Below are positions 208 to 7,780 of a stretch of 64,000 nt of DNA, piece after piece; the stretch's first letter is position 1; each line of letters opens with the position of its first letter. Origin of the DNA: Escherichia coli (GTDB lineage: Bacteria > Pseudomonadota > Gammaproteobacteria > Enterobacterales > Enterobacteriaceae); assembly GCF_003334815.1 (NCBI RefSeq), contig NZ_QOWO01000021.1; one strand, written 5' to 3'. The notes below the pieces were generated by a model that saw only the letters and a program-made list of their open reading frames with translations, did not search any database and was not told the origin of the DNA. A program made the position numbers and the translations under genes.

Positions 208-3200
208 ATGGACTTATTTGACCTGTTAACAATTAAATTTACCTTGCCCGCGAAAGCTGCCCCTGTAAGAAAAGTGGGTGGGAATTATGTTCATAAATTA
301 CTTTGCCGATCAACAACAGTATTGGCTCAAGTCAGAAATGCACGTTTCCAAGGATATTTTGAACTTGTTACGGGTCTAAAGCCCCCTCTGGACTATGTCT
401 ATCTGAAAGATCCAAATTCCAGGGGTAAATGCGCAGATGGTGTAGCTTCCCTTAAAGCTAAGGAACCATTTACATTCGAAAAATGGCGAGAAGATACTGA
501 GTTAAGCTGGGAGCAATTTCCAGAGCAGGTAATTAGCACTTCACCTAATGAAATTAATGAACAATGGCATCATCAATTTCAGTTTAGAGAGGACGATCCA
601 GAGCGCAATTCTCCCGGTCTCAGAAAACCCCAACTGGGTGCACTTCATGCAATTGCAGGCTATTTCGCCACTGATTTGCAGGTAGAACCTGCTACCGTCG
701 TACTGCCCACTGGAACGGGAAAAACGGAAACAATGCTGGCTACCATGATATACCAGCGATGCGAGCGAATTTTGCTCATAGTCCCATCTGACTCTCTCCG
801 AACACAGATATCCAAAAAGTTCATCGATTTAGGATATTTGCCAGAGCTAACAGTCGTTCCACCCAACATTGCACTTCCTAATGTCGCCATTATTAAGAAA
901 GGAATTCAGGTAGCGGAAGAAGCTAAGCAATTAGCTTGTGAATCAAACGTCTTGGTTGCTACGACCAGCGTTTTGTCTGCCTGCTCCGAAACAGCATTAA
1001 ATGCACTTTGCGAGTTGTGTAGCCATCTTTTTGTTGATGAGGCTCATCATATCTCAGCCTCATCATGGCAGACAATTCGCAAACGATTTAAAAACAAACG
1101 TGTAGTGCAGTTTACAGCTACCCCTTTTAGGAATGATAAAAAGTCCCTTGGTGGGAAAATTATCTATAACTACACGATGGGGGAAGCCCAACGAGCAGGC
1201 TATTTTACAAATGTAAATTTGCTGCCTGTAGAAGAGTATTACTCTGACCTTATGGATCACGCAATCGCAGATAAAGCTGTTGGCCAACTGCGTATAGACT
1301 TAAATAATGGCCTTGATCATTTGCTTATGGCCCGTACTAGCAATAAGCAGCGAGCAGAAGAAATACTGACTATTTATCAGAATATTGTACCGAACTTTAA
1401 TCCAATCGTTATTCATTCTGATTATCCTAAAACGGAAATAAAAAAACGTCTTAATAAATTATTATCAAGACAATCAAGAATCGTTATTTGCGTAGACATG
1501 TTGGGAGAAGGCTATGACCTACCCAACCTGAAAATTGCCGCTTTGCATGATCACCATAAGTCTCTTGCAGTAACTTTGCAGTTTATTGGCCGTTTTACTC
1601 GTGTCAATAAAGCACAGAAAATTGGTCAAGCTAGTGTAGTCATGAATGTTGCAGACCCTAATGTTGAAGGTGAATTACAGCATCTATATTCAACAGATGC
1701 CGATTGGGATAACGTATTAAGGCGACTCTCTGAAGGACGAATTGCTAGAGAGATTAGGTTGCAAGAGGTCGTGGATGCCTTAAAAAGGAAAGGTGATTTA
1801 CACGATCAGATCTCTCTCTGGAACCTTGAGCCAAGTTGTTCTGTCATGTTATTTAAAACATACTGTGACAATTGGGAGCCTGAAAGATACAAGGAAAAAC
1901 TGCCTAGATTCGATGAATCATGGCATGCAATAGCAGAAGATGAGAATTTGCTTGTTGTGCTAGCTGTCCAGACAACTTCAGTCCGGTGGGGAAACTACAA
2001 AGATCTTAAAGATACCAATTATAAAATTCTAATTGCTCATTGGGATCAAAGCAGATCCGCCTTGTTTGTATTCTCAAATGACTATAAAGCATTCCGGGTT
2101 GAGAATCTGGTTAGTACTATTTGTGATGATAAATTTGAAATTGTCAGTGGTGAAAAAGTTTTTAATGTATTTAATGGTATTGAATATCCTTTAGCAAGAA
2201 ATTTAGGCGCATCCCAAATTGGAGCAATAAGCTTTACTCAATATTTTGGCCCAAATGTCACTGAGGGGCTATCACTAATTGAAGCGTCTCAATCAAGCTT
2301 AAGCAATATTGCTGCATTAGGTTATGAATCCGGAAACCGTGTAATCTGGGGATGCTCGCAACGCAGAGGTAAGGTCTGGTCACCACAAAAAGGGGGTAGC
2401 ATTGCTGATTGGTGCAACTGGGTTAAGAAAACTTGGGACAAAATCTTTAGTTCTGAACCAGATCCAAACAACCTTACGCGTAACTTTTTGCGTCCTGTCC
2501 CATTACTCGAACCCTATAATGAATATCCAATATCAGCTCAATGGGGTGAGTATTTGCTTACTACGTTCGAAGATAAAGTTATTTTTCATTTTGATGCTAT
2601 ATCAGCTCACTTATATTTAGTAGATGTGAAGACTGCTGGAAAGTTTGACGATGGCAATGTGCGGCTCATTTTTTCTACAGATGAAACTTCATCTGAATAT
2701 AAATTATGTCTTACAGGTAGTACTACAGCAAAAGGTTATGCCTATCAGTTGATTTCTGGCCCTGAAGTCTTTGTACAGCGAGGTGAATCTGAACCTGTAT
2801 CACTATCAGAATATATGGAAATTGATCCAGTAATGATTCATTACTCCGATGGCTCATTTTCTTACAACGCTCATATAGTTCATGTAAGCCCAAATATTGG
2901 CCTTTATGACAAAGACGAAATTGTAGCTTTTGATTGGAATGGAACTGATGTTCGACTGGAATCAATGGGCTATACTCGTGATCCATCATCCATCCAGTGG
3001 CGTTGGTACAGTGAAATTAAAGATAATTACGATGTTATTATTAATGACGACGGTAAAGGTGAGTCAGCTGATTTAGTTGGGTTAAGAATAGTTGATGACT
3101 GTATTGTTCTCTCTTTAATTCATTGCAAGTATTCAGGCTCAGAAGAAGCTGGAGCAAGACTTAAAGATCTTTACGAAGTATGTGGGCAGGCACAGAGATG

Positions 3201-3489
3201 CATTCGTTGGAAGCACCTGAATCTTTCCTATTTATACCACCACATTAAGCGGCGCGAGGAACAGTGGCGATCGCTTGGTCATTCTCGCTTTCTAAAAGGC
3301 ACTATAAAAGACCTTGCAGCTATGAAAGAGCGCTCCAGAATCACACCTCTTAAATTCCAAGTTGTTATTGTTCAACCAGGACTTAGAGTAAACAAAATTA
3401 ATGAAGAAGGCCTTAAGTTACTTGGCAGTACGGCCTTATTTATCAAGAAAACAACGATGGCAGACTTAGTTGTTATTGGTTCTAAATAG
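208..3489 (+). CDS. SF2 (ResIII/DEAD-DEAH type) helicase-family ATPase with long uncharacterized C-terminal region (1093 aa)
   Basis: ATG at 208 preceded by AAGAGG at 193-198; Walker A GTGKT (nt 712-726), DEAHH (nt 1036-1050), TATP motif III, QFIGRFTR motif VI (nt 1579-1602); residues ~470-1093 unassigned; AT-rich codon usage. Confidence 0.85.
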   Translation: MDLFDLLTIKFTLPAKAAPVRKVGGNYVHKLLCRSTTVLAQVRNARFQGYFELVTGLKPPLDYVYLKDPNSRGKCADGVASLKAKEPFTFEKWREDTELSWEQFPEQVISTSPNEINEQWHHQFQFREDDPERNSPGLRKPQLGALHAIAGYFATDLQVEPATVVLPTGTGKTETMLATMIYQRCERILLIVPSDSLRTQISKKFIDLGYLPELTVVPPNIALPNVAIIKKGIQVAEEAKQLACESNVLVATTSVLSACSETALNALCELCSHLFVDEAHHISASSWQTIRKRFKNKRVVQFTATPFRNDKKSLGGKIIYNYTMGEAQRAGYFTNVNLLPVEEYYSDLMDHAIADKAVGQLRIDLNNGLDHLLMARTSNKQRAEEILTIYQNIVPNFNPIVIHSDYPKTEIKKRLNKLLSRQSRIVICVDMLGEGYDLPNLKIAALHDHHKSLAVTLQFIGRFTRVNKAQKIGQASVVMNVADPNVEGELQHLYSTDADWDNVLRRLSEGRIAREIRLQEVVDALKRKGDLHDQISLWNLEPSCSVMLFKTYCDNWEPERYKEKLPRFDESWHAIAEDENLLVVLAVQTTSVRWGNYKDLKDTNYKILIAHWDQSRSALFVFSNDYKAFRVENLVSTICDDKFEIVSGEKVFNVFNGIEYPLARNLGASQIGAISFTQYFGPNVTEGLSLIEASQSSLSNIAALGYESGNRVIWGCSQRRGKVWSPQKGGSIADWCNWVKKTWDKIFSSEPDPNNLTRNFLRPVPLLEPYNEYPISAQWGEYLLTTFEDKVIFHFDAISAHLYLVDVKTAGKFDDGNVRLIFSTDETSSEYKLCLTGSTTAKGYAYQLISGPEVFVQRGESEPVSLSEYMEIDPVMIHYSDGSFSYNAHIVHVSPNIGLYDKDEIVAFDWNGTDVRLESMGYTRDPSSIQWRWYSEIKDNYDVIINDDGKGESADLVGLRIVDDCIVLSLIHCKYSGSEEAGARLKDLYEVCGQAQRCIRWKHLNLSYLYHHIKRREEQWRSLGHSRFLKGTIKDLAAMKERSRITPLKFQVVIVQPGLRVNKINEEGLKLLGSTALFIKKTTMADLVVIGSK

Positions 3490-3584
3490 GACGAAAAATT
3501 GATAATATTCGATTTTAGTAATATTAAATAACGAATTGAATATGCTATAAAAATGATGGAAAAAGCAAGAAAAGAGAGTAAATT

Positions 3585-4907
3585 ATGATCCTATTCTTTT
3601 ATCCCTACATAATGCTTTGCTATAGCGCTGGATACGCTTTATTGCAAACACTGGATGGGATGGGTGTGATTAGTACCAACTTTGTAGAAATGAACGCACA
3701 GGGTGCTCTTTTGAGCAGTTACTGGTCTCCCAATAAAGTTGCTGTAGTCTTAGGAGGATGTTTTCTTGAGCTCTTTATTTTATTATTACCTTTTGTTTTC
3801 TTGAGCTCATGGATACTTGCCAGAAAAAAGGGACTCATCATTTGTTTTGTTCTTCTTATAACCCCTGGCCTATTATCGCTCTGTCACCTTCTTCCTGCTA
3901 TCCAGTGGTTGCCATTGACCTATGAAATAGGAGGTACAGGTGCAACAGGTAACGCAGCTGGACTCGGAAGTCTTAGCTTCATAGGGCTATTGAGTGGTTG
4001 GATTTTGGCAGTAATCATTAGTGATATTTTTGCTACAGGAGAGAAATTCAGACAGTGGACAGATATTTTCCTAATACTGACAGCAGTTGGAAACGGTCTT
4101 TTCTGGGTATCAGACAGAGAGGTGGCTGTCGGTAAAACCGCATATGAGAAAACAATTACGGATATTAATGATGCAGCCAAATACCTTCTTTTTCAGGTGA
4201 AAGACTACAGCCGCATGTGTGACAATAACGGGCTTACCGAAATGTCATCTTGTCAGTGGGCATCGTACATTCAAGAAACGCTAGAAAATATTGCCAGTAC
4301 AAAATCATCTGTTATTGAATATGTAATACCTGAAAATCTTGACACCTTCTACCGAATTCCTGAGTACTATAGCAATCAAGTATCTCCAGATAAAATCAGA
4401 CAGGAATTTCAAGACTTCAATAAAAAACTATGCCCAAATAAATCTCTTTCCAAAACAATAACACAATTGCCATCACCTTCTCGATGGTGCCAGACCCCAC
4501 CCCCAGCTTACTGCAATGCCATTCAAGAGGGAAAATATAAAACAGGCATGTCAGACCGTTTCGCTGTCGCCAATGAGTGTGTAACTACATCATTATTAAG
4601 GTACCGCCAAGTTTTATTAAAAGAACAAGCTCGTTTATCCTTAAGTAAAAATGCCCCTCATTATAGATGGATGTGGTTTATTGCTATGTCTTTTTTTATT
4701 GGAGGGAAAATTGCCAATGTAATGACAAAAATAGGTAATGTAGAGAATCGTCTCATAACTGAGAAACATAGAGTTAAATTCATCCTTCTAAAAACATGTG
4801 GTTTTATTGTGCGTACATTAATAAGATGTGCCATCTTATTTCGGAAAGTGTTTTTTTCAACGATCAATTATATCAAAAGATTGAAGAAAATAAAGCATGA
4901 TACTTAA
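3585..4907 (+). CDS. Putative polytopic membrane protein, function unknown (440 aa; start codon uncertain)
   Basis: 1.3 kb ORF in AT-rich DNA; N-terminal half has several hydrophobic helix-length segments, one more near C-terminus; 95 nt downstream of helicase gene, same strand. Confidence 0.55.
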   Translation: MILFFYPYIMLCYSAGYALLQTLDGMGVISTNFVEMNAQGALLSSYWSPNKVAVVLGGCFLELFILLLPFVFLSSWILARKKGLIICFVLLITPGLLSLCHLLPAIQWLPLTYEIGGTGATGNAAGLGSLSFIGLLSGWILAVIISDIFATGEKFRQWTDIFLILTAVGNGLFWVSDREVAVGKTAYEKTITDINDAAKYLLFQVKDYSRMCDNNGLTEMSSCQWASYIQETLENIASTKSSVIEYVIPENLDTFYRIPEYYSNQVSPDKIRQEFQDFNKKLCPNKSLSKTITQLPSPSRWCQTPPPAYCNAIQEGKYKTGMSDRFAVANECVTTSLLRYRQVLLKEQARLSLSKNAPHYRWMWFIAMSFFIGGKIANVMTKIGNVENRLITEKHRVKFILLKTCGFIVRTLIRCAILFRKVFFSTINYIKRLKKIKHDT

Positions 4908-5425
4908 ATAGAATAGTGACAAACACTCAATTGCAAGGTCATTCTTTGTGTTGAATGAATAAAGAACAAGGGGTACTTTCTCCTGTACCCTTGGAGTTTA
5001 TATTAGATAATACATCTGAATCTACTCTGGTGATTCACACTAGCGGCAATAGTGTTTTGTACTCAACCGTTTATACAATAGCATCCATGACTAATTGAGC
5101 GTAGAGTTCAGTAAGCTTATTAATTATCCACTTATTGAAAGAATTCGTGGAACGCTCTTACCGATAAAATCAGTGAATGTATTGCTCTTGGTGATAATGC
5201 CATTGGGAAAAATTACCAACCAGCCATCCCATTAAGGCTAGCCGATTAACTTTAATTGAATCGCCACGGATTTGGCAAACAATTCACATGTCTCTACTAC
5301 GCTTGATTTTTTCGTAGTATAACAGCGTAACCCTTTTTCTCCCGGTTTACATACAAGAAACCTGTTCATCATTGCTGATGAAGATATATGCTGCCCTTAC
5401 ACGATAATTGTTTAGGATAGTAACA

Positions 5426-6391
5426 ATGCCTTTAGATTTAAGTAACACTTTAGTGATTGGCATCAGCGCGACTGCGCTTTTTGATATGAGTGAATCCGAT
5501 CGCATGTTTTGCGAAACCTATGCGACCGATCCTGATAGCGCCATTGAAAAATACCGCGCCTATATGCTGGAGCACGAAAACCAACCTTTACAGCCCGGAA
5601 CAGGCTACCCTTTAGTCAAAGCGTTGCTGGGTCTGAACCAGTACCGTCAACCGGATGATAAATCACCGTTGGTTGAAGTCGTTGTGATGTCACGTAACAG
5701 CCCTGATACAGGTATCCGCGTTCTGAATACTATTCGCCATGACAGGCTCGATATCACGCGCTCTGCCTTTACAGCAGGCGAAACTGTTGCTGATTACCTT
5801 GATGCCTTTGATGTGGATCTGTTTTTAACAACTAACGTTGAAGATGCGCAAAAGGTGATTGATTCCCGATTCTGCGCCGCTGCAATCCTGAAAGATCCGC
5901 CTTCTGACGCATCTGATATCCCGGAAGGGCAAGTGCGCATTGCTTTTGACGGCGACGCGGTACTTTTTTCCGATCAAAGCGAACTGGTTTATAAGACCCA
6001 AGGAATGGTTGCCTTTCATGCTCAGGAAGACGCGCAGCAGGATATCCCTATGGAAGAGGGGCCTTATGCCACTTTGCTAAAAAAAATAGCCAAGCTTCAG
6101 GAACGATTGCCGACCCGCGTTGAGTATTCTCCTGTTCGTATTGCATTGGTGACAGCCCGAAATAGCCCTTCGGAAATGCGCGTTATTAAAACGCTAAGAA
6201 GCTGGGGGGTATATGTCGATGAAGCTTTTTTTCTTGGCGGCGTAGAGAAAACAAAAGTTCTGAAGGCATTTAAACCACACATTTTCTTCGACGATCAGGA
6301 TGTGCATTTAAATACAGCTGCAAAGGTTGTACCTTCCGGGAAAGTACCTTATGCCAGTAACTCCGAACTGGCAGAGCGTGAAGCATCGTAA
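5426..6391 (+). CDS. HAD-like 5'-nucleotidase-family protein (putative)
   Basis: ORF with AGGA 8 nt upstream of ATG 5426; two internally similar halves each with an Asp-rich segment (LFDMSESD and IAFDGDAVLF) and C-terminal FFDDQD resembling HAD phosphatase motifs; family assignment from recollection. Confidence 0.65.
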   Translation: MPLDLSNTLVIGISATALFDMSESDRMFCETYATDPDSAIEKYRAYMLEHENQPLQPGTGYPLVKALLGLNQYRQPDDKSPLVEVVVMSRNSPDTGIRVLNTIRHDRLDITRSAFTAGETVADYLDAFDVDLFLTTNVEDAQKVIDSRFCAAAILKDPPSDASDIPEGQVRIAFDGDAVLFSDQSELVYKTQGMVAFHAQEDAQQDIPMEEGPYATLLKKIAKLQERLPTRVEYSPVRIALVTARNSPSEMRVIKTLRSWGVYVDEAFFLGGVEKTKVLKAFKPHIFFDDQDVHLNTAAKVVPSGKVPYASNSELAEREAS

Positions 6392-6582
6392 TTATCGCTG
6401 ATAAACCATTTAGTCATTAAGGCTGGATGGTTTGTATACCACACGCAAAATAACGGCCCTACCCCAGATCAATGCTCGCCTCTGAACACCTCTTTCCTGT
6501 GCCATTCCACAAACTGTTCGCCCGGATAATTTTCTTTAACCGGTGGCAACGCAATCGCTTTTCCCGCAAAATCCCAGAACAG

Positions 6583-7344
6583 TCACTGTACCACTCCACC
6601 ATCATTTACCGCACCGGAAACTACCACACGCATATTTTCATCCAGGTCAATCGAACCGCGATCAAACGCTTTATGATGGATTGCGCACAATGCCAGGCCA
6701 TTAGGTACTTCACAAGGGCCATGGTGCTGTTTCCATCTGATATGAGCAGCTTCCAGAGCAATCGGCGCATTGTCGTGGCGCATGTTAAAGCCGCAGATAG
6801 CGCACTGATAATTGTAAGCATGTAGCACCATCTGGCGAAACTTCGGATCGCGTTGACGAAGAGAGGTGCGAATATCAAAACTCCTCTCGTCAGCTATCTC
6901 TTCCTGAATACTGGCCGGGAAATGCGCCTCCAGGAGCTGCTGCGCCAGCGTATCAATTAACCTGTAATTTTTTTCCACCAACGCAAAATTATCGGCATCA
7001 AATCCACCAGCGACATTATATTCAATGAGTTCACGTCGGGGCGGCTGGCGGCTACCACTGGTTGAGCACAGTTCCGCGTTATGTAGTTCCCAGAAGCCAT
7101 CGCCCTTCAGACGCCAGAACGGCATGTCCGGGCGCTGGTCACGGCGCTGCGGTCCATAACGTTCCAGGAGATCCAACAGGGGCTCGTAGATTTCAGAAGC
7201 ATAGTTAAACAGGCGACCATGACTCTGCCGATAGTGTGAGAGAACGTACAGCAGCAATAATGGCTTATGTGGCGCACGTTGTTCACCTTTGCGCCAGATG
7301 GTGATATTTGATATCGCTTGCTTTAGGGTTTTGTCAGAGGTCAT
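6583..7344 (-). CDS. HNH endonuclease-family protein with uncharacterized N-terminal domain
   Basis: C-terminal HNH signature (YQCAICGF ... AAHIRWKQHHG ... NGLALCAIHHKAFDRG); start could be ATG 7344 or upstream TTG 7389. Confidence 0.75.
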   Translation of the reverse strand: MTSDKTLKQAISNITIWRKGEQRAPHKPLLLLYVLSHYRQSHGRLFNYASEIYEPLLDLLERYGPQRRDQRPDMPFWRLKGDGFWELHNAELCSTSGSRQPPRRELIEYNVAGGFDADNFALVEKNYRLIDTLAQQLLEAHFPASIQEEIADERSFDIRTSLRQRDPKFRQMVLHAYNYQCAICGFNMRHDNAPIALEAAHIRWKQHHGPCEVPNGLALCAIHHKAFDRGSIDLDENMRVVVSGAVNDGGVVQ

Positions 7345-7463
7345 TGCGTTGAAGAATCCATGAGCATATGTTTGCGATGATGCTCGCAACTATATGTATA
7401 TTCAAGGCATTATTGCAGACATCCTTTTTGCCTGACGGCTCTGTACCTGGCAGATGGAATTCT

Positions 7464-7518
7464 GAAAAAAATACAGCGACCAACCAGTCCTAAGCGGTCT
7501 GGTTGGTCTTTTAAATTT
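7464..7518. terminator. Hairpin (gaccaaccag / ctggttggtc) flanked by A-run and T-run; candidate bidirectional intrinsic terminator
   Basis: 10-bp perfect inverted repeat at 7478-7487 / 7499-7508 with 11-nt loop, AAAAAAA upstream and TTTTAAATTT downstream. Confidence 0.5.
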
Positions 7519-7549
7519 AAACATCAGCCAAGGAGTAACGGCATTCAAC

Positions 7550-7780
7550 TCACTCGCCATTACCCCGATTGATCTTCGCATAGTCAAACGGCGTAATCGC
7601 TCTTTCCCGATTGGCATCCAGAAAATCGACCCACCACTGCAACATCAGCTTACGCTCATCCAGATATTCCGCTTTATGGATTATACGCGGCCTGCACTGA
7701 GTTACGTCCATGTGGCTCATCTGACGTTCAGCCGCTTTATCTCGTGCTGTTTTGGTCTCAATACTTCCATGCCGTTGCAA
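7550..7780 (-). pseudogene. Remnant of a P4-type tyrosine integrase (C-terminal ~70 codons only)
   Basis: Translation aligns to the C-terminus of the intact integrase at 10668-11933 (about 37 of 58 residues identical by manual alignment, e.g. IHKAE.L.ER.LMLQWW.DFLDANRER); N-terminal catalytic body absent. Confidence 0.7.

What the first reader, a model, noticed from the sequence alone, without database searches (positions are those of the whole stretch)
5426..6391. 5'-nucleotidase-like HAD protein with internal duplication, inside a defence-like island
The protein appears to consist of two related halves, each with a hydrophobic strand followed by an Asp-containing motif (VIGISATALFDMSESD; VRIAFDGDAVLFSDQSE; also RIALVTARNSPSE twice-similar to VVVMSRNSPDT), ending with FFDDQDVH. 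This is consistent with a HAD-type nucleotide phosphatase. A nucleotide-degrading enzyme positioned convergently with an HNH nuclease could deplete nucleotides as a defence mechanism or process modified nucleotides, but this is speculation.
Basis: inference. Interest (0 to 1): 0.55.

Follow-up and report, generated by a model that had tools for sequence, protein, structure and literature searches.

The report
Island-borne cN-I-type 5'-nucleotidase gene
This E. coli gene encodes an intact nucleotide phosphatase of the same family as animal cytosolic 5'-nucleotidase I, built from one dead and one active copy of the same fold; it is a fixed part of a mobile anti-phage island, but a role in phage defence is only an untested database candidate.

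Summary
Window 5426-6391 (+) is the RefSeq CDS "5'-nucleotidase", a full-length Pfam PF06189 match (E 4e-119). That is the family of human NT5C1A.

The two halves are true duplicates (BLASTP E 7e-7; profile-profile E 2e-19). Only the C-terminal half keeps the four HAD catalytic motifs. The N-terminal half has lost them in every family member examined.

The gene is accessory in E. coli (72 of 5426 genomes). It sits in tRNA-integrated islands ordered tRNA, integrase, (PT-DNA HNH enzyme), 5'-nucleotidase, variable defence slot, type I RM.

Sequences at least 72% identical form one clade that lies in RM/defence islands in distant bacteria. Relatives below 70% lie in ordinary housekeeping neighbourhoods.

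PADLOC lists the family as PDC-S08, one of 145 untested candidates, and its model does not separate the two groups.

Coupling to the HNH gene is not supported. That gene carries a nonsense codon here, is missing in one island variant, and has a different evolutionary history.

Most likely it is a (d)NMP phosphatase recruited as an island backbone gene. A defence role is plausible but unproven. Identity and candidate status are already catalogued, so interest is moderate to low.

The parts
5426..6391 (+). Complete CDS (321 codons plus stop) of a cN-I-family (PF06189) HAD 5'-nucleotidase
   Evidence: Pfam PF06189 over residues 1-312, E 3.8e-119. RefSeq annotation 5'-nucleotidase WP_028132771.1. 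All 11 invariant family residues are present.
5426..5905 (+). N-terminal half (about residues 1-160): a catalytically dead HAD-like duplicate, probably a regulatory or ligand-binding domain (inferred)
   Evidence: hhalign against the C half gives E 2e-19. S14/T16 replace the DxD Asp residues and T135/T136 replace the motif IV Asp pair, while S89, N91 and R98 are kept. It has the same secondary-structure order as the C half.
5906..6388 (+). C-terminal half (about residues 161-321): the active HAD phosphatase domain
5948..5962 (+). HAD motif I, DGDAV (D175 nucleophile, D177 acid/base)
   Evidence: Translation. The columns are invariant in 51 homologues.
6152..6160 (+). HAD motif II, TAR (T243)
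6248..6250 (+). HAD motif III lysine, K275
6290..6295 (+). HAD motif IV, DD (D289, D290; Mg2+ ligands)
6401..6435 (.). 15-bp hairpin in the 77-nt spacer between the convergent genes; a possible bidirectional terminator
   Evidence: strand folding centroid structure; the z-score of the whole 91-nt piece is only -1.5. Weak evidence.
6469..7344 (-). Neighbour, not part of the same functional unit: phosphorothioated-DNA-binding HNH restriction endonuclease gene with a nonsense codon (TGA at 6583-6585, residue 254 of 291)
   Evidence: NF045808, E 1.9e-114. Translations. CGA to TGA change. RefSeq marks it as a pseudogene in strain EC556.
208..4907 (+). Variable cargo slot of the island in this strain: a 1093-aa ResIII/DEAD helicase (208-3489) and a 440-aa membrane protein (3585-4907)
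   Evidence: In other E. coli islands the same slot holds Dsr1, a SIR2 protein or hypothetical proteins.
10668..12206 (-). Island anchor: tyrosine integrase (10668-11933) and tRNA-Phe (12131-12206)

Best explanation
**What it is**
The gene encodes an intact Mg2+-dependent HAD phosphomonoesterase of the cytosolic 5'-nucleotidase I family (PF06189).

**How the enzyme works** (chemistry inferred from the HAD superfamily)
- The C-terminal HAD domain should hydrolyse nucleoside or deoxynucleoside 5'-monophosphates to nucleoside plus phosphate through a phospho-Asp175 intermediate.
- D177 acts as acid/base, T243 and K275 hold the phosphate, and D289 and D290 hold the Mg2+.
- The N-terminal domain is an ancient duplicate of the same fold. 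It has lost every catalytic Asp and Lys but keeps a Ser/Asn/Arg set.
- I infer it is a regulatory nucleotide-binding or oligomerisation module, comparable to the ADP activation known for animal cN-IA.

**Where it sits**
- In E. coli it is not a core gene. It is a conserved backbone gene of a family of tRNA-integrated islands (pheV, leuX, selC).
- The order is tRNA, integrase, (PT-DNA HNH enzyme), 5'-nucleotidase, variable defence slot, type I RM.
- It belongs to one horizontally spread clade that sits directly after RM operons or next to integrases in distant bacteria.

**Island role I think most likely** (inference, not shown)
- It acts as a high-Km, substrate-gated sink for (d)NMPs released when DNA is degraded during restriction or infection.
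- That would deny phages the recycled nucleotides and so support restriction-based defence.
- It acts independently of the neighbouring HNH gene.
For: **Enzyme identity**
- PF06189 full length, E 4e-119. The family includes human NT5C1A (PMC5098729).
- The four HAD motifs are invariant in 51 homologues and present in the window.

**Duplication:**

**Gene integrity and constraint**
- dN/dS is 0.03-0.05 among E. coli alleles, although dS reaches 1-2.

**Accessory status**
- Present in 72 of 5426 complete E. coli genomes.

**Island architecture**
- Same architecture at three tRNA sites.
- The slot cargo includes Dsr1 and SIR2/PDC-S25.

**Contexts in other bacteria**
- hsdRMS followed by the nucleotidase in Pseudoalteromonas, Azotobacter and Pseudomonas.
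- A type III RM, then the nucleotidase, then GmrSD in Desulfomicrobium.
- An integrase, then the nucleotidase, then DUF262 on a P. putida plasmid.
- A variable RM, Zorya or McrBC region beside the gene in Shewanella.

**Clade split**
- RM, type IV or integrase markers lie within 10 kb at 11 of 12 places with at least 72% identity, against 6 of 67 below that (Fisher 1.5e-8).
- The island-borne sequences are monophyletic in an NJ tree.

**Precedents and kinetic logic**
- HAD phosphatases are effectors in validated defence systems (PMC12715507; 10.64898/2026.01.15.699771).
- cN-IA has a millimolar Km for AMP, is activated by ADP, and has low Km for pyrimidine dNMPs (PMC10383617).
- PADLOC lists the family as candidate PDC-S08.
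Against: **No experimental support found**
- No experiment on this protein or any bacterial PF06189 member turned up.
- PDC-S08 is one of 145 explicitly untested candidates.
- Its HMM scores housekeeping-context homologues as high as this one.

**Signs of an ordinary enzyme**
- Relatives at 65-69% identity sit beside uvrC, sppA, rsmB, purM and pepN. More distant ones are syntenic with mutY and glyA.
- No island-specific change touches the catalytic residues. Most clade-typical residues are shared with the housekeeping sister lineages.
- There is no sensor domain and no conserved partner.
- Very strong purifying selection is more typical of a metabolic enzyme than of an arms-race gene.

**Weak field data**
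- In a P. aeruginosa panel, PDC-S08 split 50/50 between phage-resistant and phage-susceptible strains.

**Method caveat**
- The markers for the context survey were taken from island loci, which biases the test towards the island clade.
Confidence: 0.5

Rival explanations
1. Passenger metabolic gene. It is an ordinary nucleotide-pool housekeeping phosphatase that was captured by an integrative island. It is kept for a general fitness benefit, or simply by linkage, and has no role in phage defence.
For: - Close relatives lie in housekeeping neighbourhoods.
- No island-specific sequence signature at the active site.
- dN/dS of 0.03-0.05 is typical of enzymes.
- No sensor domain or partner.
- The PDC-S08 candidate is untested and its HMM is not clade-specific.
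- A 50/50 split between resistant and susceptible strains in a P. aeruginosa panel.
Against: - The whole clade at 72% identity or more, in at least ten organisms from two phyla, sits inside or beside RM/defence loci. It often starts 21-163 nt after the last RM gene on the same strand.
- It is retained at three E. coli tRNA sites while the neighbouring cargo and the HNH gene change or decay.
- Pure hitchhiking would not predict dN/dS of about 0.04 across alleles with dS above 1.
Confidence: 0.35
2. One reading: the nucleotidase and the convergent HNH nuclease form a two-gene defence unit. For example, the nuclease cuts modified (phosphorothioated) DNA and the nucleotidase disposes of the modified nucleotides.
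For: - The pair is adjacent in most E. coli islands that carry the gene.
- Elsewhere the gene often lies next to other modification-dependent enzymes: GmrSD or DUF262, McrBC and SRA-HNH.
Against: - The HNH gene has a nonsense codon here and in strain ZYB39, with raised dN/dS (0.15-0.25), while the nucleotidase stays at about 0.04.
- It is absent in strain S43, and another gene is inserted between the two in EC291.
- The orientation is convergent, so there is no shared transcript.
- dS differs about five-fold between the two genes, so their histories differ.
- No PT-REase homologue lies next to the gene outside E. coli.
- Type IV enzymes are common in any RM-centred island, so proximity alone is weak evidence.
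Confidence: 0.05
3. A pyridine-nucleotide phosphatase. The real substrate is NMN, NaMN or NADP. On islands it would reinforce NAD+-depleting Sir2-type effectors by blocking the rebuilding of NAD+.
For: - The slot next to the gene holds Dsr1 or a SIR2 protein.
- A Zymomonas plasmid homologue lies beside a SIR2 protein, an NTP pyrophosphatase and an adenosine deaminase.
- A distant homologue is adjacent to NAD kinase and a kynurenine-pathway cluster.
- AFDB holds a fungal NAD kinase fusion with this fold.
Against: - Sir2 cargo is present in only 2 of 6 E. coli slot variants seen, and in none of the non-E. coli island contexts.
- NAD kinase adjacency was found in only 1 of about 100 loci.
- The characterised family members are AMP and dNMP nucleotidases.
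Confidence: 0.07
4. A nucleic-acid end phosphatase, like the T4 Pnkp 3'-phosphatase domain, acting on DNA or RNA termini rather than on free nucleotides.
Against: - Identity is 12-18% and only one half aligns.
- The sequence family is that of biochemically defined 5'-nucleotidases.
Confidence: 0.03

Closest known systems
Animal cytosolic 5'-nucleotidase I (cN-IA/NT5C1A, cN-IB; Pfam PF06189)
   Same: - Same Pfam family over the full length (NT5C1A is listed under PF06189 in PMC5098729).
- Same HAD motifs.
- The two-domain layout is covered by the single family HMM.
   Different: - Bacterial, and carried on a mobile island.
- Substrates and ADP activation are not tested for any bacterial member. 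A 2021 review of microbial 5'-nucleotidases lists none of this type.
- No solved structure exists for the family.
PADLOC phage defence candidate PDC-S08
   Same: - The protein matches the model at E 1.4e-133.
- Its relatives are appended to, or embedded near, type I and type III RM systems. That is how PDCs were picked.
   Different: - PDCs are explicitly untested.
- The model scores homologues in housekeeping contexts equally high, so a hit says nothing about defence.
- In this window the flanking type I RM is reduced to pseudogene fragments.
HAD phosphatase effectors of validated defence systems (CARF-HAD 'Chp' of type III CRISPR; PUA-Cal-HAD)
   Same: HAD catalytic chemistry directed at nucleotides, used in anti-phage immunity.
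   Different: - Those effectors are switched on by a sensor (CARF with cA4) or by partners (PUA-Calcineurin-CE with m6-dAMP), and they act on (d)NTPs.
- This protein has no sensor domain and no conserved partner.
- It belongs to a different HAD family and has a dead tandem duplicate.
T4 Pnkp 3'-phosphatase domain, AphA (class B) and class C acid phosphatases, MDP-1 (structural neighbours)
   Different: Only 110-150 residues (one half) align, at 11-18% identity. None of them has the tandem pseudo-HAD plus HAD arrangement.
Phage T5-induced 5'-nucleotidase (functional analogy only)
   Same: Dephosphorylation of nucleotides from degraded host DNA during infection. The classical observation is cited in the reference list read (Warner et al. 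1975).
   Different: - It is phage-encoded and serves the phage.
- No sequence relation was tested here.
- Homologues of the present protein are almost absent from phage genomes (3 of 50,697 records).

Membership tests
Pfam PF06189 / cytosolic 5'-nucleotidase I family | Full-length match to the family HMM | tested here: met
   E 3.8e-119; residues 1-312 on model positions 1-300 of 302.
Pfam PF06189 / cytosolic 5'-nucleotidase I family | HAD motifs I-IV (DxDxV, T, K, DD) intact | tested here: met
   D175, D177, T243, K275, D289 and D290 are invariant in 51 homologues and present in the window.
Pfam PF06189 / cytosolic 5'-nucleotidase I family | Tandem architecture: a degenerate N-terminal HAD-like half plus a catalytic C-terminal half | tested here: met
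   BLASTP E 7e-7; hhalign E 2e-19; repeated secondary-structure order in the model.
Pfam PF06189 / cytosolic 5'-nucleotidase I family | Mg2+-dependent 5'-(d)NMP phosphatase activity and nucleotide (ADP) activation | not testable with these tools
   Known only for the animal enzymes (PMC10383617).
HAD superfamily | Rossmann-like HAD fold | tested here: met
PADLOC PDC-S08 (phage defence candidate) | Match to model PDLC04900 | tested here: met
   E 1.4e-133. Housekeeping-context homologues score the same.
PADLOC PDC-S08 (phage defence candidate) | Embedded in, or directly linked to, a type I RM, BREX or DISARM system | tested here: inconclusive
   In this window only hsdR and hsdM pseudogene fragments remain further upstream. 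The link is clear in relatives.
PADLOC PDC-S08 (phage defence candidate) | Protects against phage | not testable with these tools
   The source paper calls the 145 PDCs untested. No later test was found.
Nucleotide-depletion defence effectors (CARF-HAD, PUA-Cal-HAD, dNTPases) | An infection-sensing domain or a conserved activating partner | tested here: not met
   Pfam finds a single family and no extra domain. The neighbours differ between lineages.
Nucleotide-depletion defence effectors (CARF-HAD, PUA-Cal-HAD, dNTPases) | Infection-triggered fall of a nucleotide pool | not testable with these tools
   Needs metabolite measurements.
Two-gene system with the adjacent HNH (PT-DNA) endonuclease | Conserved co-occurrence, shared history and both genes intact | tested here: not met
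   Nonsense codon in the HNH gene. The gene is absent in S43 and outside E. coli. dS is 0.18 against 1.03.

The most novel reading that the evidence does not exclude
The horizontally spread, island-borne clade of cN-I-type nucleotidases (at least 72% identical to this protein) is a genuine sensor-less immune or RM-accessory factor. It would be a high-Km (d)NMP phosphatase, perhaps switched on through its dead N-terminal HAD domain by a nucleotide that accumulates during infection. It would drain the dNMPs released from degraded DNA, so that phages cannot recycle them. If so, a relative of a human muscle enzyme would be a bacterial antiviral protein.
Probability: 0.3. Interest if true: 0.6.

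Novelty: already known. Interest (0 to 1): 0.35.

Why it matters
If the island-borne clade does protect against phages, it would add a new and very simple logic to nucleotide-pool immunity. That logic is monophosphate dephosphorylation, without a dedicated sensor.

It would also give the first function and biochemistry for bacterial members of the cN-I family, which has no solved structure. And it would tie an animal metabolic enzyme family to prokaryotic immunity.

The practical points shown here are narrower but useful:
- A PADLOC PDC-S08 call should not be read as evidence of defence, because the model also captures housekeeping homologues.
- The family-wide dead-plus-active HAD tandem suggests an allosteric site worth testing.
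- The gene marks one edge of a cargo slot where uncharacterised defence candidates sit, including the helicase and membrane protein pair of this window.

Tried and rejected
**Searches on the protein that found nothing**
- NCBIfam and PHROGs gave no family.
- The PDB sequence search found nothing with the single protein. With the family profile the only hit was a chance match at E 0.9 to PdxS.

**Context look-ups that failed**
- P0124 and P0146 sit on contigs too short to be informative.

**Looking for informative domain fusions**
- Longer homologues (P0260, 708 aa; P0167, 486 aa) showed only PF06189 in Pfam.

**NAD kinase linkage**
- tblastn with the L017 NAD kinase found no second case among about 100 loci. 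I therefore kept the NAD idea only as a low-probability rival.

**Signals around the gene**
- The promoter and terminator scan of 4800-7600 gave no more sites than shuffled sequence.
- The hairpin between the convergent genes is not significant for the whole 91-nt piece.

**Island-specific residues**
- The search for residues that could indicate a new function found that almost all clade-typical residues, and the 7-residue insertion at positions 33-39, are shared with the housekeeping sister lineages.

**Literature**
- Searches for PDC-S08, PF06189, and nucleotidase combined with defence terms found no experimental test.

- Two searches and one in-paper term look-up failed on term syntax. One search failed on a queue timeout.
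Full report
**1. What is at the coordinates**

The window is Escherichia coli. Bases 5300-6500 are 100% identical to several complete genomes.

The ORF at 5426-6391 (+) is the RefSeq CDS "5'-nucleotidase" WP_028132771.1. An AGGA lies 8 nt before the ATG.

It lies in an island left of tRNA-Phe (12131-12206), which is followed by yqgA and speC. The order of features, read from the tRNA leftwards, is:
- a tyrosine integrase at 10668-11933;
- a phosphoethanolamine transferase;
- an outer-membrane protein;
- an integrase remnant;
- an HNH gene;
- the nucleotidase;
- a 440-aa membrane protein;
- a 1093-aa helicase;
- type I RM pseudogene fragments, seen in the identical strain.

**2. Family assignment**

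| Library | Result |
|---|---|
| Pfam | one full-length domain, PF06189 "5-nucleotidase", E 3.8e-119 |
| NCBIfam | nothing |
| PHROGs | nothing |
| PDB by sequence | nothing, with the single protein or the family profile |
| PADLOC | PDC-S08, E 1.4e-133 |

PF06189 is the family under which human NT5C1A (cN-IA) is filed (PMC5098729).

The family is large:
- 7992 of the 8000 scored candidates reached E ≤ 1e-5 in the 90%-clustered protein set.
- 2356 clusters at 50% identity reached E ≤ 1e-3.

**3. The internal duplication is real and family-wide**

- The two halves of the window protein align with BLASTP E 7e-7.
- Profiles of the halves, from a 51-sequence alignment spanning 35-82% identity, align end to end with hhalign E 2e-19.

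The invariant columns of the family are G58, D175, D177, E201, G212, T243, R245, R252, K275, D289 and D290. All four HAD motifs lie in the second half:

| Motif | Residues |
|---|---|
| I | DGDAV |
| II | TAR |
| III | K275 |
| IV | DD |

At the aligned positions the first half has S14 and T16, S89 and N91, V121, and T135 and T136. It therefore cannot form the phospho-aspartate or bind Mg2+. It does keep a conserved Ser/Asn/Arg set: S89, N91 and R98, where R98 aligns with R252.

The AlphaFold model is confident (pLDDT 95.1, pTM 0.92) and shows the same strand and helix order twice.

The protein is a dead HAD copy followed by an active one, not two Asp-bearing halves.

**4. The neighbouring HNH gene**

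It is a phosphorothioated-DNA-binding restriction endonuclease (NF045808, E 2e-114), that is, a modification-dependent type IV enzyme.

In the window it carries a CGA to TGA change at codon 254 of 291. RefSeq marks it as a pseudogene in the identical strain.

Comparison with the nucleotidase:

| Measure | HNH gene | Nucleotidase |
|---|---|---|
| dN/dS in the two lineages with the stop codon | 0.15-0.25 | about 0.04 |
| dN/dS between intact alleles | 0.08-0.09 | 0.03-0.05 |
| dS, window against EC291 | 0.18 | 1.03 |

The same stop codon is present in strain ZYB39, which has a different nucleotidase allele.

- Strain S43 has no HNH gene at all.
- In EC291 another gene lies between the two.
- No homologue of the enzyme lies beside the nucleotidase outside E. 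coli.

An obligate two-gene unit is therefore not supported.

**5. Distribution and island architecture in E. coli**

The gene is found in 72 of 5426 complete genomes. Alleles range from 100% down to 83.5% nucleotide identity.

Six contexts were read. All share the order tRNA (pheV, leuX or selC), integrase, (PT-REase), nucleotidase, variable slot, hsdS-hsdM-hsdR. The slot holds:
- Dsr1;
- a SIR2 protein (PADLOC PDC-S25);
- unannotated proteins;
- or, in this window, a helicase plus a membrane protein.

Homology between alleles begins only 11 nt before the start codon. The nucleotidase is thus the fixed edge of a cargo slot.

**6. Contexts outside E. coli**

| Organism or element | Order of genes |
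|---|---|
| Shewanella (four genomes) | the identical protein beside a region carrying type I RM with Zorya, McrBC or an AAA_15 system |
| Desulfomicrobium | type III RM, nucleotidase, GmrSD |
| Azotobacter, Stutzerimonas | hsdRMS, nucleotidase, DUF262, VWA, PP2C, kinase |
| P. putida plasmid | integrase, nucleotidase, DUF262, VWA, PP2C, kinase |
| Pseudoalteromonas luteoviolacea | hsdRMS, nucleotidase, AAA_15 system, McrBC |
| Another Pseudoalteromonas | integrase, nucleotidase, GTPase, then three HNH genes |

**7. More distant relatives are not in islands**

A scan of one genome per species gave 80 loci.

| Group (identity to the window protein) | Neighbourhood |
|---|---|
| About 20 Lachnospiraceae and Clostridia species (45-49%) | conserved synteny with mutY, a glycosyltransferase and glyA |
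| Oxalobacteraceae | malic enzyme |
| One gammaproteobacterium | NAD kinase and exonuclease I |
| Members at 65-69% | uvrC, sppA, rsmB, purM, pepN or two-component genes |

A marker survey (RM subunits, type IV enzymes, integrases and others) found a marker within 10 kb at 11 of 12 distinct places with at least 72% identity. Below that the figure was 6 of 67 (Fisher 1.5e-8). The markers came from island loci, which favours this result. The independent NCBIfam annotations point the same way.

In an NJ tree the island-borne sequences form one clade nested inside chromosomal proteobacterial lineages. That clade includes a Desulfobacterota member, so it has spread horizontally.

No catalytic residue differs between the groups. 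Most clade-typical residues, and a 7-residue insertion, are shared with the housekeeping sisters.

The PDC-S08 model scores the housekeeping-context proteins (433-449 bits) like the E. coli one (443 bits).

**8. What is known**

- PDCs are 145 candidates chosen because some member was embedded in a BREX, DISARM or type I RM locus. The authors call them untested (10.1101/2024.01.29.577857).
- I found no experimental test of PDC-S08 or of a bacterial PF06189 enzyme.
- A 2021 review of microbial 5'-nucleotidases lists no enzyme of this type.
- Animal cN-IA hydrolyses AMP with a millimolar Km, is activated by ADP, and has low Km for pyrimidine dNMPs (PMC10383617).
- HAD phosphatases do serve as effectors in validated systems, but with a sensor or partners.
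- Homologues are nearly absent from phage genomes, at 3 of 50,697 records. They are rare on plasmids, at 46 of 72,556 records.

**9. Interpretation**

Shown:
- an intact cN-I-family HAD phosphatase with a dead tandem duplicate;
- very strong purifying selection (dN/dS 0.03-0.05 with dS up to 2);
- accessory status in E. coli;
- a conserved backbone position in RM-centred integrative islands;
- membership of a monophyletic, horizontally spread island clade.

Inferred:
- the substrate is a (d)NMP;
- the dead domain is regulatory;
- the island role is to drain (d)NMPs released during DNA degradation, and so to support restriction-based defence.

The main rival is that the gene is a metabolic passenger (0.35). 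The HNH-partner idea (0.05), an NAD-related substrate (0.07) and a Pnkp-like end phosphatase (0.03) are minor.

**10. Verdict**

The finding is accurate as an observation and partly right as an interpretation. The enzyme family, the RefSeq name and the defence-candidate flag all exist already, so I rate it "already known", with interest 0.35.

The most novel reading that remains open is a sensor-less nucleotidase immunity factor, at probability about 0.3.

Noticed in passing
window 6469-7344 (-): The PT-DNA-binding HNH restriction endonuclease gene has a CGA to TGA nonsense codon at residue 254 of 291 (TGA at 6583-6585). The same stop occurs in strain ZYB39 with a different nucleotidase allele. 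dN/dS is higher in these lineages (0.15-0.25 against 0.08-0.09), which suggests an inherited pseudogene.
   Followed up: yes
window 208-3489 (+) and 3585-4907 (+): The island's variable slot holds a 1093-aa protein with ResIII, DEAD and Helicase_C domains in residues 138-466 and about 600 C-terminal residues without any Pfam match. It is followed by a 440-aa multi-pass membrane protein with no hit in NCBIfam, PADLOC or PHROGs. Given its position, this is a possible uncharacterised defence pair.
   Followed up: partly
window 7550-7780 (-) and 10668-11933 (-): There are two integrase genes. One is a short remnant just beyond the HNH gene. The other is intact and next to tRNA-Phe. An outer-membrane protein and a phosphoethanolamine transferase lie between them, so the pheV island looks like two elements in tandem. 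Strain EC556 has an extra IS3 between these two genes that the window lacks.
   Followed up: partly
L012 10001-15782; L098 8001-13760; L021 about 9595-15397: In Azotobacter, a P. putida IncP plasmid and Stutzerimonas, the nucleotidase heads a conserved same-strand block: nucleotidase, DUF262 (GmrSD N-terminal-like), VWA, PP2C phosphatase, Ser/Thr kinase. The gaps are about 30 nt, so this may be a multi-gene unit.
   Followed up: partly
L004-L007 9661-16343: In four Shewanella genomes the identical nucleotidase is preceded by a conserved 55-aa ORF. It is followed by a conserved cluster of four GTPase or dynamin-like genes plus a small CxxCxxCC protein. The region upstream varies (type I RM with Zorya, McrBC or an AAA_15 system).
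   Followed up: no
L017 7161-8933; AFDB A0AA38Y3A3: A 41%-identical homologue lies directly after an NAD kinase gene and near a kynurenine-pathway cluster. AFDB holds a fungal 571-aa protein annotated as NAD kinase that contains this fold. This hints at an NAD(P)-related substrate in some housekeeping clades. No second case was found among about 100 loci.
   Followed up: partly
L100 6905-10462 (Zymomonas plasmid pZMOB01): An unannotated 42%-identical homologue lies next to a SIR2 family protein, a non-canonical purine NTP pyrophosphatase and an adenosine deaminase, on a 32-kb plasmid that also carries a DNA methyltransferase. This is a nucleotide-metabolising cluster of possible defence relevance.
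   Followed up: no
L104 2773-3960 and 10246-11148 (E. coli EC291): A DUF4268 protein (PADLOC PDC-S11, E 3e-172) is embedded between hsdS and hsdR. A 300-aa protein matching PDC-M09A lies between the nucleotidase and the HNH gene.
   Followed up: no
window 6401-6435: A 15-bp hairpin sits in the 77-nt spacer between the convergent nucleotidase and HNH genes. It is a possible bidirectional terminator, but it is not significant against shuffles for the whole 91-nt piece (z -1.5).
   Followed up: partly
L099 1830-2759 (E. coli IncI plasmid): A second, only 40%-identical PF06189 gene occurs on a conjugative E. coli plasmid next to fosA10 and an IS4-like transposase. Different clades of the family therefore reach E. 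coli by different vehicles.
   Followed up: no
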